A DNA stretch of 64,000 nucleotides, from IMG/VR virus record IMGVR_UViG_3300025274_001348, positions 1 through 64,000 of that record; one strand, written 5' to 3'. Each line of letters opens with the position of its first letter. Position 1 is the stretch's first letter. The DNA is from a virus. A program made the translations under genes and the position numbers. A model generated the notes under the pieces. That model was not told the origin of the DNA, did no database searches, and saw only the letters and a list, made by a program, of their open reading frames with translations. Below, piece after piece: positions 2,028 to 32,329 of the stretch.

Positions 2028-2577
2028 AACGAACAACGGGGCTACTGGAACTCACAGGCAACGCTGATAAGACGCCGTGAGATAGGGTTAAGAGCCACTG
2101 CAAGCCTAACACACAAAACATACTCTGGAGAAGTTTCGACAACTGATAACCCCTTGCGAGGGTAAGCCCACTAAGAACCGGGGCGCCACTAAAGTTCTCG
2201 GTGACGTAGGGGAAGCTGGTTAGCTTCTAATCGCAAGTGCAGTTGTTACAGGGCGCAACTCCCTGTCAGAGTGCCACACAATCCTGAGTAGTACCCCACG
2301 CTCGGTTGGCCGTTACAGCGGCAAGGGACTAGTAAGCCTAGTAGAAGCCTGTAAGCTTTGAACGGATGCTAGTACCATGGGGATCTTACAACGGACAGGA
2401 ATGGATTACGGGGTTGACCGACAAACTGGTCGCAGGGTTCAATTACCTGCCCTGTCCTTTGACACCACCCTAACAGAAGGGGACCGCGAATGAAGCTATA
2501 TTGAAACAGCACTAGCAAGATGGGCGTCTATCGTCCACAAGCCCCTGTCGGAAAACCAGCGACGGGGGCTTTTTTTA
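2028..2577 (+). ncRNA. candidate ~550-nt structured RNA with tRNA-like domains (2121-2276, 2393-2458)
   Basis: No credible ORF between promoter and terminator; many stems separated by A/C-rich linkers. Confidence 0.65.
2541..2577 (+). terminator. intrinsic terminator
   Basis: GCCCCTGTCG/CGACGGGGGC followed by a T-tract. Confidence 0.8.
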
Positions 2578-8162: not shown

Positions 8163-8480
8163 ATGGCGACGATGAACGGGATGCCGCGAGTGACGAAGGA
8201 CGCAACGATTGCCGTGATGCACAAGGCAACGACAATCGACATGGCTGAATTCGGGGTTCAAGTCCTCGATGAACTGGACGAGGAGCAACCGGCCTTGTGT
8301 CAGATGCTCACTCACATGATCATGGACCTCGCCTGTCCCGACGAGATGCCCGAGGAATTGAAGCAGTCGAATGCTCTGATCATGACCGTCATCGCCGGAT
8401 GTCTGTTCAAGTCGATCAAGGCACAGATTGAAGCGGAAGAAATGGCAAGTTTGTTTAGTGAAGAGGAGACTGTTGAATGA
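8163..8480 (+). CDS. hypothetical protein, paralog of 5370-5666
   Basis: Visible alignment. Confidence 0.75.
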   Translation: MATMNGMPRVTKDATIAVMHKATTIDMAEFGVQVLDELDEEQPALCQMLTHMIMDLACPDEMPEELKQSNALIMTVIAGCLFKSIKAQIEAEEMASLFSEEETVE

Positions 8481-8655: not shown

Positions 8656-8832
8656 ATGAAGACGACGGTTGCGACATTCGAGTTGGAAAAGGAAACCAAG
8701 AACACGATTCGCTACAGCGAAACGCCGGATGAAGGCGTGGCCCCAGTGGTCAACACGATCTACATCCAGAAGCACGTTCTCGGCAAGACCGCTCCACAGA
8801 ACATCAAGGTGACAATGGAGGAATCTAAATAA
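8656..8832 (+). CDS. 58-aa hypothetical protein (MKTTVATFELEKETKNTIRY…IYIQK…)
   Basis: AAGGTG RBS; hand translation. Confidence 0.65.
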   Translation: MKTTVATFELEKETKNTIRYSETPDEGVAPVVNTIYIQKHVLGKTAPQNIKVTMEESK

Positions 8833-9147
8833 GGCGGGGATTGCAACCCCGTCTAGGGTGGTGACTGAACAATCCCCGGTTATGGGGGGATAAGGTGCGC
8901 GCTGCTGAGTTCCGATAGCCGAATGGTCGAGGAGTTCAGGTAGACGGCAGTCATACAGAACTACCATATCTGTGAGCTTGCGGGCAAAAGTGAATCCCGC
9001 CCACCCGTTATACATACAGCGCTGGCTAAGAACCGGGGCGCCACTATAATACTCGGTGACGCCAGCGCTATCAAACAGTGACTTGGAGTTTCGCCCTTTC
9101 CTCAGTCGCTGGCCCCCGTTCCGGTTCGCCGGTGCGGGGGTTTTTTT
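8832..9147 (+). ncRNA. candidate structured RNA: cloverleaf-like domain 8856-9007, conserved motif hairpin 9018-9069, terminator 9112-9147
   Basis: ORF-free; multiple perfect stems; shares a 36-nt motif with 2171-2206. Confidence 0.65.
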
Positions 9148-27703: not shown

Positions 27704-28038
27704 GGGGGCGATTGGCTTCGACTGGTAGTGGAGATAATAGTTGCATGGAGTGGTTGGTCAGTTGGCCACTATAAAAGCTGACCAAAAAGTAATTGCCGAA
27801 AAGCAATTCGCGTTGGCTGCCTAGAGTAGTCAGGGGTTGCACAAACCTTTTTATCCAATTGTGCTGACTCCGATAATCGGATAGGGATGGCTAACCCAAA
27901 AATAACGCCTGATGACCATAATGGTCTGATGATGGTCAATCCATCTAGTTTTGTCTGCTGTGCGATAACAACAGACTAACCATGTAGAAGTTATTGTTTA
28001 AGCTATACAGGACGCGGGTTCGATTCCCGCCGCCTCCA
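27704..28038 (+). ncRNA. ssrA: tmRNA; tag peptide (A)AEKQFALAA at 27795-27824
   Basis: GGGGGCG/CGCCTCC acceptor with G3.U70, TTCGAC D-loop, GGAC-GCGGG-TTCGATT-CCCGC T arm, tag ending ALAA*. Confidence 0.93.
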
Positions 28039-28057
28039 TTTTACATTGGGAGAAAGT

Positions 28058-29143: not shown

Positions 29144-30915
29144 TAGGATGTATTGGAACAGATACTATAGACACAGTAATCACAGGCATGAGGCGAATGG
29201 AATACCGTGGCTATGATAGCTATGGATTCTGTGCCTTCAAAAATGATTCCAAATTTCTCTACAAAGATGTTGGGCTGGTATCTAGAAATACAAATCTCAA
29301 TGGCTATTCCCATGCACTAAGGGGCTATACTTCTGCAATAGGTCATACCAGATGGGCAACTCATGGCGAGGTCACAAAAGAAAATGCTCATCCACAGTAT
29401 GACGAACAAGAAACTATATTTGTTGTTCACAATGGTACGGTAGATAATTCTCCATCTGATATGTTGGATACGCAGTATATAGTTCAGCAATTAAAACTAC
29501 GCCTTACCAAACACTGGATGACCGTCAAAAGCCCAGACCGTTTTACAGAACCCCTGCGAGAACAAGTCCCACTAACACCAGAAGACTATCTTCTCACGGT
29601 CAATGCAGTAACACAAAAACTAGAAGGTGATAATGCATTCCTAGTGTCCTTCTCAAGCCTGCCAGATTATATTTTCTGTGCCACCAAAGGCTCTAAGTCA
29701 CTGTTAGTTACAGATAATGGACACGTTAGCAGCGATTCGTATGCGATATCGGGCAAGGCGAAAGAGGCTCGAAGAATTAAGAACTCTGTGGTGTGCTTAT
29801 CTTCCAAGGGGATAATATCTAGTGTGAAACCGTTTAGCTCATCTGCGAAGATAGAAACAGTGCCAGAGCAACAGGAACATAAATTATCTGAGCCTCACTT
29901 CATGCTGCAAGAGATTAAAGAACAATACTCTCTTATGGAGGATATGGGTAATTATCCTATGTACCATCCTCCGTTTCGGCCAGAGAGATTAAACCTGATT
30001 GGGTGTGGAAGTAGCTACTATGCAGCTATGTGGGCAAAGGTTTGGTTTGAGACGATTGCAAGGATTCCCACTACCGTAACTTATGGAAGTGAAGCCTTCA
30101 ATCTCACTCTTAAAGACCCAAACGCAACCGACATCTACATAAGCCAAAGCGGAGAAACTAAAGATATTATTCGTGCATCCCGTGATGCTAAGTCAGACAG
30201 CGTTTTTGTAGTTACAAACAATATTAATTCCCACCTAGGAAATTCTTTCTTTCACACAATTGATATTGGCGCAAACATTGAACGAGGAGTTGCCGCTACT
30301 AAAACCTTTACTCTAACCTGTTATGCGCTATGGGAGCTTGCTTGGCACTGGTCATCTGAATCTGAAGAAAACGAACTTAAAGTGTTAGACTACCAAGACG
30401 CCCTAGCCGAAGGAATTAAGCATGTGCTTGATCGTGAACAAACCGTAGCGACTATTGCAAAGATGATAGCCCAGTATGACAACGCTCTATTCTTAGGTAG
30501 ACATTGGGACTACCCAATAGCCTTAGAGGGCGCACTTAAGTTAAAGGAAGTTAGTTACATTCACGCAGAGGGTATGCCAGCAGCAGAAATGAAGCATGGA
30601 CCCATCGCCTTGGTGGATGAAAAGACTCCAAGCATATTTACTGTTACCGGCTCTTTCGACATAGACACAATTATTTCTAACATGAGAGAGGTTAAATCCA
30701 GAAACGGAAAAGTGTTTGCTGTTGTTAGTCCTGTAAACTATGACAGAGTAAAAGAAGTTGCAGACTGGACTTTCCGAACATGCGATATTCACGGTGTGGC
30801 AATGCAGCCACTTGTAGCAAATGTTGTCCTACAGTTACTTGCGTATCACGTAGCTGTTGAAAAAGGACTTAACCCTGACCGCCCCCGTAACCTAGCCAAG
30901 AGTGTAACCGTATAA
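29131..30915 (+). CDS. glmS: glutamine-fructose-6-phosphate aminotransferase
   Basis: MCGI, EYRGYDS, GHTRWATHG, SQSGET, ALKLKE, PRNLAKSVTV. Confidence 0.95.
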   Translation: MCGIIGCIGTDTIDTVITGMRRMEYRGYDSYGFCAFKNDSKFLYKDVGLVSRNTNLNGYSHALRGYTSAIGHTRWATHGEVTKENAHPQYDEQETIFVVHNGTVDNSPSDMLDTQYIVQQLKLRLTKHWMTVKSPDRFTEPLREQVPLTPEDYLLTVNAVTQKLEGDNAFLVSFSSLPDYIFCATKGSKSLLVTDNGHVSSDSYAISGKAKEARRIKNSVVCLSSKGIISSVKPFSSSAKIETVPEQQEHKLSEPHFMLQEIKEQYSLMEDMGNYPMYHPPFRPERLNLIGCGSSYYAAMWAKVWFETIARIPTTVTYGSEAFNLTLKDPNATDIYISQSGETKDIIRASRDAKSDSVFVVTNNINSHLGNSFFHTIDIGANIERGVAATKTFTLTCYALWELAWHWSSESEENELKVLDYQDALAEGIKHVLDREQTVATIAKMIAQYDNALFLGRHWDYPIALEGALKLKEVSYIHAEGMPAAEMKHGPIALVDEKTPSIFTVTGSFDIDTIISNMREVKSRNGKVFAVVSPVNYDRVKEVADWTFRTCDIHGVAMQPLVANVVLQLLAYHVAVEKGLNPDRPRNLAKSVTV

Positions 30916-31172
30916 TGCCTAAATACTATGTAGAGACCGGAACCCTGCAAGAAATAGTGGAATCTAATACTCCTTTTGATGCCTGCGTGAGGGCTGTACG
31001 CAGGGCTACTAATGAATATCTGGAGGGTGGAGAGAATGTTACCTTGGGGGAATCGTTTATTGTTAACCAAAAGGGTTTCCCCTCCAATCGTGAACCCTTC
31101 GCTCTTGATACTGCAAATGACACTATGGTGTCTACGAGTCGTATTATAGAGGCTCTTGAAGATGGATCTTAA
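30915..31172 (+). CDS. hypothetical protein
   Basis: TAATG-coupled ORF. Confidence 0.6.
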   Translation: MPKYYVETGTLQEIVESNTPFDACVRAVRRATNEYLEGGENVTLGESFIVNQKGFPSNREPFALDTANDTMVSTSRIIEALEDGS

Positions 31173-31309
31173 CGGCAAAAGAGGCAAATTTGAAAGATGG
31201 CTAGATCTTCATAATCATAAGATGGAATTGATGAGAACATCGTTTTCATTTGTTGCAGCAATCACTGGTATATTGGTATTATTAAAGGTGTTCGGATTTA
31301 TGGACTAAA

Positions 31310-31395
31310 GCCCTGTTGCAGCCGACATGAGCCTTCTAAGCTCATCCCCTGAATGTGTCGGATGGAGGGGTAGGGTTCGATTCCCCAGCGGGGTA
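31310..31395 (+). tRNA. atypical tRNA-Arg(TCT): no D stem, long variable arm
   Basis: GCCCTGT/GCGGGGT acceptor, ATGAGC-CTTCTAA-GCTCAT arm, CCCCT/AGGGG variable arm, GGG-TTCGATT-CCC T arm. Confidence 0.65.
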
Positions 31396-31415
31396 CTCAT
31401 ATAAGGAGAGTTAAT

Positions 31416-31832
31416 ATGACAATGGGTGGAAGCGAAAAGAGATTAATAGTAGACTGCGACGGAGTTATAGCCGATAAAGACCACGGTGGTATATATGCGA
31501 ATGCTGGCCCCTTACAGCACGGTATCGACCAAGTAAATAAACTGTATGACATGGGATATGAAATCGTACTATATACAGCGAGATATGGAGATCGAGAAAA
31601 GGGTAACATAAATAGACAATATGAACGTGGATATGTAGAATGGGTGAAGTGGCTGAAGGATCACGGTGTTAAATATCACCACGCATTTATGGGCAAGATT
31701 GCTGGAGTTCTCTATATAGACGATAAGGCTGCTAGAGTCAACAGTGATAGTGAAGACGGGTGGGAAGACGTGTGGAAGGAAATAGATGACCTTACAGACA
31801 GAGATAGATACGGGAGGAAAATCGTGTCATGA
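31416..31832 (+). CDS. HAD-superfamily phosphatase (capsule biosynthesis phosphatase-like)
   Basis: VDCDGVI, YTAR, YIDDKA. Confidence 0.8.
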   Translation: MTMGGSEKRLIVDCDGVIADKDHGGIYANAGPLQHGIDQVNKLYDMGYEIVLYTARYGDREKGNINRQYERGYVEWVKWLKDHGVKYHHAFMGKIAGVLYIDDKAARVNSDSEDGWEDVWKEIDDLTDRDRYGRKIVS

Positions 31833-32329
31833 AACTAGATCATATTGCCTACAGGGTAAAAGGTAGACATGAGGCAGCAGAGTTCTTTTATTCGATGTTC
31901 GGTTACGAGTTTGGAACCGAATTTGATGTAGAATTTGATGATGGCTCCAAGGCCGAATGTTATGTCCTCCTTCCACCAATAAATCCATCTATTTTAGTTC
32001 GTGAAGGACCGGAGATATTTATATCTGACGGAAGTCCCGGCTCAATTGTCGGGGATTGGGTTGAGGCTAGGGGTGGTATTGGTGGTATACATCATATAGC
32101 TTATAAGGTAAGAGATATAGACGCTGTTGTTGATGAATGGAAGAAACAAGGCATTGTCGAGTTTCTTACAGACGATGTAATCGAATGTCCAGACGACGAC
32201 CTTCGGCAAATTTTTACTAAACCCTTGGAATACGTAGGTGGAATAATTATCGAACTGATTGAAAGAGGATCTAAAGGATTCTGTGAAAAGTCAGTTAAGG
32301 ACTTAATGAATAGCACGAAAGGATTATAA
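31829..32329 (+). CDS. VOC-fold protein resembling the catalytic C-domain of 4-hydroxyphenylpyruvate dioxygenase
   Basis: LDHIAY, GIHHIAY, LRQIFTKP, IELIER..GF. Confidence 0.7.
   Translation: MKLDHIAYRVKGRHEAAEFFYSMFGYEFGTEFDVEFDDGSKAECYVLLPPINPSILVREGPEIFISDGSPGSIVGDWVEARGGIGGIHHIAYKVRDIDAVVDEWKKQGIVEFLTDDVIECPDDDLRQIFTKPLEYVGGIIIELIERGSKGFCEKSVKDLMNSTKGL

What the first reader, a model, noticed from the sequence alone, without database searches (positions are those of the whole stretch)
31310..31395. Non-canonical tRNA-Arg(UCU): D arm replaced by a possible D-region/variable-loop pairing
Seen: acceptor, 6-bp anticodon stem with loop CT-TCT-AA and TTCGATT T-loop are present, but only 10 nt (TGCAGCCGAC) separate the acceptor and anticodon stems. 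A long variable arm (CCCCT/AGGGG) has a loop containing TGTCGG, exactly complementary to CCGACA of the D region. This suggests a rewired or pseudoknotted tRNA architecture. AGA codons are abundant in the AT-rich genes. With the elements at 2121, 2393 and 8856, the phage appears to carry a set of non-standard tRNA-shaped RNAs. Inference: a nuclease-resistant decoder or decoy.
Basis: partly seen in the sequence, partly recalled or inferred. Interest (0 to 1): 0.7.

Follow-up and report, generated by a model that had tools for sequence, protein, structure and literature searches.

The report
Rewired, pseudoknotted phage arginine tRNA
This 86-base gene of an uncultured marine phage is very probably a working arginine tRNA (reading AGA) that cannot form the textbook cloverleaf, because half of its D-arm lies behind the anticodon arm and pairs back across it.

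Summary

- **Family.** Nine other viral or MAG sequences share the layout. It has a 9-bp acceptor stem, a 3-bp T stem, no D hairpin, a 5-bp variable stem, and a 5-6-bp helix between the 5' linker and the variable loop.
- **Covariation.** That helix covaries: 5 of 6 pairs change on both sides, and 0 of 500 shuffles reach the observed score. The same holds on a 39-sequence alignment made by a model that had no knowledge of the helix.
- **Membership.** A covariance model built without the window hits the element at 93 bits (E 6e-26).
- **Synteny.** 20 of 52 related phage loci carry an ordinary tRNA-Arg(UCU), 15 of them directly upstream of the same gene. This phage record has no other ARAGORN-called tRNA-Arg, and AGA is its commonest arginine codon (39%).
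- **Wider design.** The D-stem 5' strand and a GG(A) D-loop mimic lie after the anticodon arm. This recurs in cultured phages (phi92, Wildcat, Av-05, KARL-1), mostly unannotated.
- **Detection.** ARAGORN missed 124 of 129 such elements.
- **Prior work.** Eight literature searches found no description. Earlier reports of this scan found the same family on other DNA.
- **Untested.** Expression, charging and any nuclease resistance.

The parts
31310..31318 (+). Acceptor stem, 5' strand (9 nt, GCCCUGUUG). G1 forms a G.U pair with 31394.
   Evidence: Pairs with 31386-31394. In A3, 7 of 9 pairs change on both sides and 94.4% of cells are paired.
31319..31321 (+). 3-nt linker (CAG) in place of positions 8-9 and the D-stem 5' strand
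   Evidence: Read from the sequence; unpaired in the model tested.
31322..31327 (+). D-stem surrogate, 5'-side strand CCGACA. It directly abuts the anticodon stem, in the place of canonical positions 22-26.
   Evidence: Pairs with 31356-31361. In A3, 5 of 6 pairs change on both sides. In the A5 alignment of 39 distinct sequences, 4 of 5 do and 94.7% of cells are paired.
31328..31344 (+). Anticodon arm: 5-bp stem UGAGC/GCUCA, with a possible 6th pair A31327-U31345. The loop is CUUCUAA and the anticodon UCU is at 31335-31337.
   Evidence: Loop invariant in 10 of 10 sequences. Stem 100% paired, with 4 of 5 pairs changed on both sides.
31346..31350 (+). Variable stem, 5' strand CCCCU
   Evidence: Pairs with 31366-31370. 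3 of 5 pairs change on both sides and 89.4% of cells are paired.
31351..31355 (+). Spacer GAAUG inside the variable loop
   Evidence: Read from the sequence.
31356..31361 (+). D-stem surrogate, 3'-side strand UGUCGG, inside the variable loop. It takes the place of canonical positions 10-13.
   Evidence: covariation with 31322-31327.
31362..31365 (+). AUGG: D-loop mimic. U54, G55 and G56 (element numbering), and A57 after them, are invariant. I infer that the GG plays the part of G18-G19 and the A that of A20.
   Evidence: Invariant columns in A3. A follows GG in 13 of 13 by-catch Arg members, against U or C in 11 of 11 Ile members. The roles are inference.
31366..31370 (+). Variable stem, 3' strand AGGGG
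31373..31385 (+). T arm: 3-bp stem GGG/CCC and loop UUCGAUU
   Evidence: Invariant in 10 of 10 sequences. The 5-bp alternative fails: pair 65-79 is standard in 0 of 10.
31386..31394 (+). Acceptor stem, 3' strand CAGCGGGGU
31395..31395 (+). Discriminator A. No CCA is encoded; CTC follows.
   Evidence: Read from the sequence. Related ordinary tRNA-Arg genes also end GGGTA without CCA.

Best explanation
The element is a gene for a functional tRNA-Arg(UCU) that reads AGA and has a non-cloverleaf core.

**Proposed structure**
- A 9-bp acceptor stem and a 3-bp T stem give the usual 12-bp acceptor branch.
- There is no D hairpin.
- The strand just 5' of the anticodon stem (CCGAC-A) pairs with a strand in the loop of a 5-bp variable stem (U-GUCGG). 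This forms a D-stem surrogate that stacks on the anticodon stem, so the fold is a pseudoknot.
- The conserved UGG after that strand is proposed to dock on the T loop as G18-G19 do.
- The A that follows is proposed to serve as the A20 identity element for the host arginyl-tRNA synthetase, together with C35 and U36.

**Proposed biogenesis and role**
- The RNA would be cut from a polycistronic transcript and receive CCA from the host enzyme.
- It would supply AGA decoding, as the ordinary tRNA-Arg(UCU) does in related phages.

**Shown here (computationally)**
- The helices, by covariation.
- The invariant loops.
- The replacement of an ordinary tRNA-Arg gene at the same genomic slot.

**Inferred**
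- The L-shape.
- Charging with arginine.
- Use on the ribosome.
For: 1. **All helices covary.** On 10 sequences, 94.9% of cells are paired and 19 of 28 pairs change on both sides. 0 of 500 shuffles reach the score, and slid controls give 35-48% paired.
2. **The pseudoknot helix holds on an independent alignment.** On a 39-sequence alignment made by a model without that helix, 94.7% of cells are paired and 4 of 5 pairs change on both sides.
3. **Own versus swapped strands.** In 31 long-class sequences, the best helix between a sequence's own two strands is at least 5 bp in 31 of 31 (mean 5.74). Swapped partners give a mean of 4.50. 0 of 2000 permutations reach the observed mean.
4. **tRNA signatures are invariant.** These are the loop CUUCUAA, the T arm GGGUUCGAUUCCC and the motif UGGA.
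5. **Independent model.** A covariance model built from 8 other members hits the window at 93 bits, E 6.3e-26, over its full length.
6. **Synteny.** 20 of 52 related loci have an ARAGORN-called tRNA-Arg(tct). In 15 it lies within 120 nt upstream of the same gene, and it has the same ends, GCCCT...GGGTA.
7. **No other Arg tRNA found.** No tRNA-Arg is called in the 84.5-kb record. AGA is 272 of 700 Arg codons.
8. **The base after GG tracks the anticodon's amino acid.** It is A in 13 of 13 Arg members and U or C in 11 of 11 Ile members.
9. **Population data.** Contigs from other runs show many differences in the flanks. None is among the listed differences inside 31310-31395.
Against: - There is no evidence of expression, CCA addition or charging, and no RNA run holds the stretch.
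- ARAGORN and Rfam at its curated cut-offs do not call it. The best Rfam match is tRNA-Sec at 23.8 bits against a cut-off of 47.
- Folding energy is no better than that of shuffled sequence (z -0.43).
- The acceptor has three G.U pairs and the T stem only 3 bp.
- I could not test whether the variable stem and the D-surrogate helix form at the same time. The two nested alternatives have similar energies (-28.6 and -28.0 kcal/mol).
- The record is only about 56% complete, so an ordinary tRNA-Arg may lie in the missing part.
- Some phages carry both forms side by side (L073 and L149), so the rewired form may do something extra.
- In the population data, 28 differences were not shown. Absence of variants inside the element is therefore not proven.
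Confidence: 0.7

Rival explanations
1. It is a tRNA-shaped decoy or regulator. The RNA is made and folds as described but is not used in translation. It might soak up a host tRNA-cleaving defence nuclease or a tRNA-binding protein, or act as a processing signal.
For: - Some phages keep an ordinary tRNA-Arg(UCU) right beside a rewired one (L073 and L149, 64 nt apart).
- tRNA-targeting defences and phage tRNA counter-measures are documented. I saw only the titles and abstracts in the listing (PMC10264068, PMC11555353, PMC12445682, PMC13096335).
Against: - A decoy would not need an exact 12-bp acceptor branch, an invariant anticodon loop and an identity-linked base after GG all at once.
- In this phage it replaces the ordinary gene rather than accompanying it.
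Confidence: 0.12
2. It is a tRNA, but the two crossing helices are alternatives rather than a pseudoknot. Either the long helix CCGACA/UGUCGG forms around the anticodon arm, or the variable stem CCCCU/AGGGG forms, as a conformational switch.
For: - The two nested folds have nearly equal computed energies, -28.0 and -28.6 kcal/mol.
- No tool here can model pseudoknots or 3D structure.
Against: - Both helices covary in the same set of sequences, so both are under selection.
- The connecting loops of 5 and 4 nt leave room for both. That steric judgement is mine and was not computed.
Confidence: 0.1
3. It is a recoding tRNA charged with serine. Like allo-tRNAs, a 9/3 tRNA with a long variable arm might be taken by SerRS and insert Ser at AGA.
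For: The 9/3 geometry and long variable arm are shared with allo-tRNAs. Mukai et al. 2017 (PMC5389517; abstract and four passages read) suggest these may act as missense or nonsense suppressors. That a long variable arm drives SerRS recognition is my recollection.
Against: - The D hairpin typical of allo-tRNAs is absent.
- The variable loop is tied up in the pseudoknot.
- The design grades into short forms without any variable stem that carry the same GGA motif.
- Among members caught without an anticodon filter, those with Arg anticodons (13 of 27) all have A after GG (13 of 13).
- It replaces an ordinary tRNA-Arg.
Confidence: 0.05
4. It is a decaying pseudo-tRNA left from the ordinary tRNA-Arg(UCU) gene.
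For: - It sits in the same slot and has the same ends as the ordinary gene in relatives.
- The standard tRNA finders fail on it.
Against: - Every stem differs from the ordinary gene yet is fully paired.
- Relatives in unrelated contigs keep the layout through compensatory changes.
- The independent model scores it at 93 bits.
- No listed variants fall inside it in other samples.
Confidence: 0.03

Closest known systems
Ordinary class I bacterial and phage tRNA-Arg(UCU) (Rfam RF00005). Examples here: L001 117-190 and L051 2907-2981.
   Same: - The anticodon loop CUUCUAA.
- A T loop of the UUCGAnU type.
- A 12-bp acceptor branch.
- The G1.U end pair and discriminator A.
- The same genomic slot.
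   Different: - There is no D hairpin.
- The D-stem 5' strand and the GG motif lie after the anticodon arm.
- The geometry is 9/3 instead of 7/5.
- There is an extra 5-bp variable stem.
- Any RF00005 match scored below 23.8 bits, against a cut-off of 29.
allo-tRNAs and other (9/3) and (8/4) tRNAs (Mukai et al. 2017, PMC5389517; abstract and four passages read)
   Same: - A 12-bp acceptor branch split 9/3 or 8/4.
- A long variable arm.
- A longer anticodon stem.
- Some members found in phages.
   Different: - The paper says allo-tRNAs have a D stem-loop like that of tRNA-Sec, with a long stem and tetraloop. Here there is none.
- The paper's main text has no occurrence of 'UCU' or 'pseudoknot'.
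tRNA-Sec (Rfam RF01852)
   Same: It is the best Rfam match. It shares a long acceptor stem, a 6-bp anticodon stem and a long variable arm.
   Different: - The score is 23.8 bits against a cut-off of 47.
- The anticodon is UCU, not UCA.
- The 14-position D arm of the model is replaced by 4 nt in the alignment.
D-armless mitochondrial tRNA-Ser(GCU/UCU) of animals (recalled; PMC4394434 and PMC4615739 seen only in search listings)
   Same: There is no D hairpin, and the anticodon reads AGN codons.
   Different: As I recall, those tRNAs simply lose the arm. They have no long variable arm, no relocated D-loop motif and no pseudoknot, and they work only with mitochondrial factors.
tRNA-like domain of tmRNA (recalled; this window's own tmRNA lies at 27704-28041)
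   Same: It has an acceptor and T arm with a D-loop analogue but no ordinary D stem.
   Different: As I recall, tmRNA has no anticodon arm, is charged with alanine, and is closed by a long helix leading to the mRNA-like part.

Membership tests
Canonical tRNA (Rfam RF00005; ARAGORN cloverleaf) | Reaches the family's curated score, or is called by a cloverleaf finder | tested here: not met
   ARAGORN makes no call. Rfam at its curated cut-offs gives no match. In the permissive search, the one lower-scoring clan match was left out below tRNA-Sec's 23.8 bits, so it is below the RF00005 cut-off of 29.
Canonical tRNA (Rfam RF00005; ARAGORN cloverleaf) | A D stem-loop between the acceptor and anticodon stems | tested here: not met
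   Only 9 nt (with the 9-bp acceptor) or 10-11 nt (with a 7-bp acceptor) lie between them, and no hairpin is possible.
Canonical tRNA (Rfam RF00005; ARAGORN cloverleaf) | A 7-nt anticodon loop with U33 and a purine at 37, a T loop of the UUCRANY type, and a 12-bp acceptor branch | tested here: met
   CUUCUAA and UUCGAUU are invariant in 10 of 10 sequences. The branch is 9+3 bp.
tRNA-Sec (RF01852) | Curated score of 47 bits and anticodon UCA | tested here: not met
   The score is 23.8 bits and the anticodon is UCU.
allo-tRNA (Mukai et al. 2017) | An 8/4 or 9/3 split of the 12-bp acceptor branch | tested here: met
   The 9/3 split is favoured over 7/5. Pairs 8-80 and 9-79 are standard in 9 of 10 sequences. 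The 7/5 pair 65-79 is standard in 0 of 10.
allo-tRNA (Mukai et al. 2017) | A tRNA-Sec-like D stem-loop with a long stem and tetraloop | tested here: not met
   There is no D hairpin. The feature is as stated in the passage read.
allo-tRNA (Mukai et al. 2017) | Serine identity (charged by SerRS) | not testable with these tools
   This needs an aminoacylation assay.
Rewired phage tRNA class (unnamed; defined in this scan), long pseudoknotted 9/3 group | The strand 5' of the anticodon stem pairs with a strand 3' of the anticodon arm, with covariation | tested here: met
Rewired phage tRNA class (unnamed; defined in this scan), long pseudoknotted 9/3 group | A GG(A) motif directly after the 3'-side strand, enclosed by a variable stem | tested here: met
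   UGGA is invariant in 10 of 10 sequences. In the variable stem, 3 of 5 pairs change on both sides.
Rewired phage tRNA class (unnamed; defined in this scan), long pseudoknotted 9/3 group | Recognised by a model built from other members only | tested here: met
   Model R1 was built from 8 sequences without the window. It scores the element at 93 bits, E 6.3e-26, covering positions 1-86 of 86. The same model gives 0 matches in the 52 loci that carry ordinary tRNA-Arg genes.
Functional tRNA-Arg | Expressed, given CCA, charged by ArgRS, and decodes AGA | not testable with these tools
   No RNA holder was listed. This needs bench work.

The most novel reading that the evidence does not exclude
Phages use a third tRNA topology. 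It is a working, ArgRS-charged, ribosome-competent tRNA whose L-shape is built from re-threaded strands: the D-stem 5' strand and D-loop come after the anticodon arm, and in this 9/3 form they are locked by a pseudoknot. The design would persist because a core without an ordinary D arm escapes host or phage tRNA-cleaving nucleases that disable ordinary tRNA-Arg, while keeping synthetase identity.
Probability: 0.25. Interest if true: 0.92.

Novelty: new variant of a known kind. Interest (0 to 1): 0.8.

Why it matters
- **tRNA structure.** The cloverleaf is treated as universal for non-organellar tRNAs. As far as I recall, the known exceptions shorten or resize arms but keep their order. Here the strand order of the core is changed, yet every functional signature is kept.
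- **Folding principle.** If these RNAs are charged and used, the L-shape can be reached through a different chain topology.
- **Annotation.** Phage tRNA repertoires, especially AGA decoders, would be systematically under-counted.
- **Applications.** There would be a natural, possibly orthogonal, scaffold for tRNA engineering.
- **Phage-host conflict.** It would also give a concrete hypothesis for the arms race around tRNA-targeting defences. That hypothesis can be tested in cultured phages that carry relatives (phi92, Wildcat, Av-05, KARL-1).

Tried and rejected
**Searches that found nothing useful**
- blastn of 1.5 kb around the element against 50,697 phage records gave no match. The 121-nt element alone gave only T-arm-sized matches.
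- An exact 21-mer of the element found 0 viral contigs.
- blastn-short of the element against the 52 related loci found only T-loop matches.
- The scan GATGGAN{5,6}GGGTTCGATTCCC returned 15 loci. Six were known UCU members and the other nine were, by eye, ordinary or unclear tRNAs. It gave no 9/3 member with another anticodon.
- Model R1 gave 0 matches in the 52 related loci.

**Analyses that failed or were uninformative**
- My first alignment (A1) used wrong minus-strand coordinates and is void. I redid it.
- A 'best helix anywhere' own-versus-swapped test on all 169 Arg-anticodon parses was uninformative, with means of 4.18 and 3.98. Short 3-4-bp D stems and shared strand sequences swamp it. 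I therefore restricted the test to the 31 long-class sequences.
- MAFFT misplaces L122 by one column in the acceptor. I kept it in A3, where it counts against the structure. I left it and the window out of the model alignment A4.
- The variable stem of the 8/4 group is out of register with the 9/3 group in A5, so I did not count it there.

**Context checks**
- No RNA holder was listed.
- The promoter and terminator scan of 30700-32000 gave nothing above the shuffled expectation.
- Pfam on 7 neighbouring proteins found only metabolic families: deaminase, a GlmS-like SIS domain with an amidotransferase domain, glyoxalase and aldehyde dehydrogenase. Nothing was tRNA-related.
- A T-loop-like match at 8255-8265 lies in sequence that I judged by eye to be coding, and I dropped it.
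- tblastn of window ORFs against the loci of the 9/3 group showed only scattered, non-syntenic phage genes.

**Literature.** Searches found no description of this layout. The pelagimyophage paper PMC7029224 (passages read) had no bearing.

**Not run.** I did not scan metagenome contigs. tRNAscan-SE, R-scape and RNA 3D modelling were not available.

Full report
**What is there.**
- A 5' strand GCCCUGU pairs with GCGGGGU at the 3' end.
- Ten nucleotides (UGCAGCCGAC) precede the anticodon stem.
- The anticodon stem is AUGAGC/GCUCAU, with loop CUUCUAA.
- The variable stem is CCCCU/AGGGG, with a 15-nt loop.
- UGUCGG inside that loop is complementary to CCGACA.
- The T loop is UUCGAUU.

ARAGORN calls three RNA genes in the window: tRNA-Asp, tRNA-Ile(UAU) and a tmRNA. 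It does not call this element. Rfam at its curated cut-offs also misses it. A permissive Rfam search of 201 nt gives tRNA-Sec at 23.8 bits against a cut-off of 47, with the 14-position D arm of the model replaced by 4 nt. The minimum-energy fold is no better than that of shuffled sequence (z -0.43).

**Genomic setting.**
- The window is part of an 84.5-kb IMG/VR virus record estimated to be 56% complete.
- The 138-aa gene just downstream (31416-31832) has relatives in 52 viral loci.
- ARAGORN finds an ordinary tRNA-Arg(tct) in 20 of these 52 loci. In 15 it lies within 120 nt upstream of that gene. This includes L001, whose gene product is 93% identical to the window's.
- Those ordinary genes begin GCCCT and end GGGTA, as the window element does, and the flanks are homologous.
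- The stems of the window element all differ from the ordinary gene, yet all are paired. This is a replacement by a different structured gene, not decay.
- Neither ARAGORN nor model R1 finds another Arg tRNA in the 84.5 kb.
- AGA is the commonest Arg codon: 272 of 700 Arg codons in 50 long ORFs.

**Relatives of the element.**
- A scan of viral contigs for CTTCTAA, a long gap and then GGGTTCGATTCCC gave 100 stretches. By eye, most are ordinary tRNA-Glu genes with CTTCTAA in the D arm. About a dozen have the window's layout.
A third, anticodon-free pattern also hit its limit.
- A parser of my own gave 1814 unique tRNA-like parses over all fetched loci. Of these, 235 have a short 5' region and a long 3' region. 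This set includes mis-parses.
- From these I took 31 unique 'long-class' sequences. Ten have 9/3 geometry: the window, L060, L073, L102, L115, L122, L131, L137, L152 and L296. Twenty-one have 8/4 geometry.

**Is the pairing real?**
- On a MAFFT alignment of the ten 9/3 sequences (A3), I counted the full structure including the crossing helix.
  - 94.9% of cells are paired.
  - 19 of 28 pairs change on both sides.
  - 0 of 500 shuffles reach any measure.
  - Sliding the partners by 1-3 columns drops pairing to 35-48%.
- The D-region/variable-loop helix (columns 13-18 with 49-54) has 5 of 6 pairs changed on both sides and 93.3% of cells paired. The sixth pair, A-U, forms in 6 of 10.
- In the variable stem, 3 of 5 pairs change on both sides.
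- In the 31 long-class sequences, the best helix between a sequence's own two regions is at least 5 bp in 31 of 31 (mean 5.74). Swapped partners give 4.50. There are 25 distinct strand sequences, and 0 of 2000 permutations reach the observed mean.
- To avoid fitting the alignment to the claim, I built a covariance model from 8 members, leaving out the window and L122. It contained only the acceptor, anticodon and T stems.
- The alignment that model made has 40 matches, 39 of them distinct (A5).
- On A5 the five core pairs of the crossing helix are 94.7% paired, and 4 of 5 change on both sides. For example, column pair 15-54 shows GU 13, CG 7, AU 5, UA 5 and GC 4.

**Geometry.** With a 7-bp acceptor and 5-bp T stem, T-stem pair 65-79 is never a standard pair (0 of 10) and pair 64-80 is standard in 7 of 10. 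With a 9-bp acceptor and 3-bp T stem, pair 9-79 is G-C in 9 of 10. The tenth is the misaligned L122, which pairs U-A when read by hand. Pair 8-80 is standard in 9 of 10, with one double change. The branch is therefore 9+3 = 12 bp, the same length as the canonical 7+5.

**Membership.** Model R1, built without the window, scores the element at 93 bits (E 6.3e-26) over its whole length. It finds nothing else of full length in the record. It gives no match in the 52 related loci that hold ordinary tRNA-Arg genes.

**The wider design.**
- Most members are shorter (about 75-80 nt, 7/5 geometry).
- Their order is: acceptor, UA, a 3-5-nt strand, the anticodon arm, a few nt, the complementary strand, a D-loop-like UAAUUGGA, a linker, then the T arm.
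- So the D-stem 3' strand stays where it is, while the D-stem 5' strand and the D loop sit after the anticodon arm.
- The window's group adds a variable stem around that relocated piece, which makes the fold a pseudoknot.
- Local ARAGORN missed 124 of 129 pattern hits.
- The design is not limited to arginine. From 77 parses that matched none of my patterns, I judged 27 by eye to be genuine rewired members caught in the flanks: 13 Arg (ACG 4, CCU 4, UCG 5), 11 Ile (GAU 7, UAU 4) and 3 Tyr.
- The base after the conserved GG is A in 13 of 13 Arg members and U or C in 11 of 11 Ile members. That A20 is a main ArgRS identity element in bacteria is from my own knowledge, and the correlation fits it.

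**Cultured phages and cells.**
- Short-class relatives lie unannotated inside the tRNA clusters of Escherichia phage phi92 and Mycobacterium phage Wildcat.
- In a few related records the same place is labelled 'tRNA-OTHER' or 'tRNA-Phe'.
- The long 8/4 class matches 342 phage records: Vibrio 304, Acinetobacter 32, and also Escherichia, Aeromonas, Salicola and Salmonella. In the 25 rows listed, the annotation is 'none' in 20 and 'hypothetical protein' in 5.
- I read the copies in Av-05 and KARL-1. They have the same layout, and ARAGORN misses them.
- A scan of one genome per prokaryotic species gave 81 hits. By eye, roughly 45 have this layout. They include Brucella, Vibrio, Mesorhizobium and Acidobacteriaceae assemblies. 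I did not test whether these lie in prophages.

**Population data.** Eighteen runs hold at least half of the sampled words of the surrounding 4.7 kb, all of them DNA. Contigs from four runs span the element. The listed differences fall at 31155-31262 and 31420-31568, and a 1-nt deletion lies at 31307. None is listed inside 31310-31395, although one spanning contig differs at 18 of 501 positions. Twenty-eight further differences were not shown, so this is only a hint of constraint.

**How it most likely works.**
- I propose that the 9+3 branch serves RNase P, the CCA-adding enzyme and EF-Tu as the 7+5 branch does.
- The CCGAC/GUCGG helix would stack on the anticodon stem in place of the D stem.
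- The strand polarity allows this. In a canonical tRNA the D-stem 3' strand continues into the anticodon stem, and the D-stem 5' strand continues the helix from the other strand.
- The UGG would dock on the T loop, and the following A together with C35 and U36 would give arginine identity.
- The helices and conserved motifs are shown here. The rest is inferred.
- Computed energies of the two nested sub-folds are -28.6 and -28.0 kcal/mol. Each extra helix is worth about -7.5 kcal/mol as a duplex.

**Comparison with what is known.**
- Mukai et al. 2017 (PMC5389517; abstract and four passages read) describe 9/3 and 8/4 tRNAs with long variable arms, some in phages. The paper says their D stem-loop resembles that of tRNA-Sec.
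- The main text of that paper has no occurrence of 'UCU' or 'pseudoknot'.
- Eight full-text searches found no description of a relocated D-arm half.
- This scan has reported the same family many times on other DNA. I reached my reading before looking those reports up, and they agree with it.
- One such note says that part of a similar claim later fell, without saying which part. I therefore limit the claims about annotation and detection to the tools and rows I tested myself.

**Limits.**
- There are no expression or charging data.
- tRNAscan-SE was not run.
- Retrieval was by patterns that fix the UCU loop, the GGA motif or the T loop, so counts by anticodon are biased.
- Several classifications were made by eye.
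- I could not test whether the two crossing helices coexist.

Noticed in passing
window 27704-28041: A phage-encoded tmRNA (Rfam 132.8 bits; tag peptide AEKQFALAA). Related loci L023-L027 and L051 carry one too.
   Followed up: no
window 8832-9010: A match to the manA RNA motif (RF01745) at 47 bits, E 6e-9, below the curated cut-off of 55.2.
   Followed up: partly
window 2121-2279 and 2393-2455: Two tRNA-end-like pieces. In the first, TACTCTG...CAGAGTG is followed by CCA. In the second, GGACAGG...CCTGTCC encloses a T-arm-like GCAGGGTTCAATTACCTGC. Neither gives an Rfam match at E up to 10.
   Followed up: no
L073 11188-11272 and 11336-11411 (also L149): A 9/3 rewired tRNA(UCU) and an ordinary tRNA-Arg(tct) lie 64 nt apart in the same phage. 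The two forms can therefore coexist.
   Followed up: partly
L060 7296-7362: A 67-nt weak match to the model (23.4 bits). It has anticodon ACG and 9/3-like ends. It has a 5' strand CCGGCA but only about 8 nt between the anticodon arm and the T arm, so no partner strand. It may be a still more reduced form.
   Followed up: no
L124, L376, L399, L408, L412, L419, L433, L392, L436 (Ile); L351, L059, L131 5542-5627 (Tyr): Rewired-layout tRNAs with Ile (GAU, UAU) and Tyr (GUA) anticodons, found in the flanks of fetched loci. After the GG motif they carry U or C instead of A.
   Followed up: partly
L442 1501-1574 (Mycobacterium phage Wildcat 61151-61224): An unannotated rewired member with anticodon loop CCCCUAC. 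The anticodon is CCU, and position 33 is C instead of the usual U.
   Followed up: no
window 31307: Contigs from two other runs (X17, X20) lack one base here. The site lies inside the TAA stop codon of the 50-aa membrane-like ORF 31156-31308, right before the tRNA gene.
   Followed up: no
L302, L338, L304, L357, L316, L350: Members of the rewired class occur in assemblies labelled Brucella cytisi, Brucella tritici, Vibrio injensis, Acidobacteriaceae KBS 96, Mesorhizobium and Fischerella. I did not check whether they lie in prophages.
   Followed up: no
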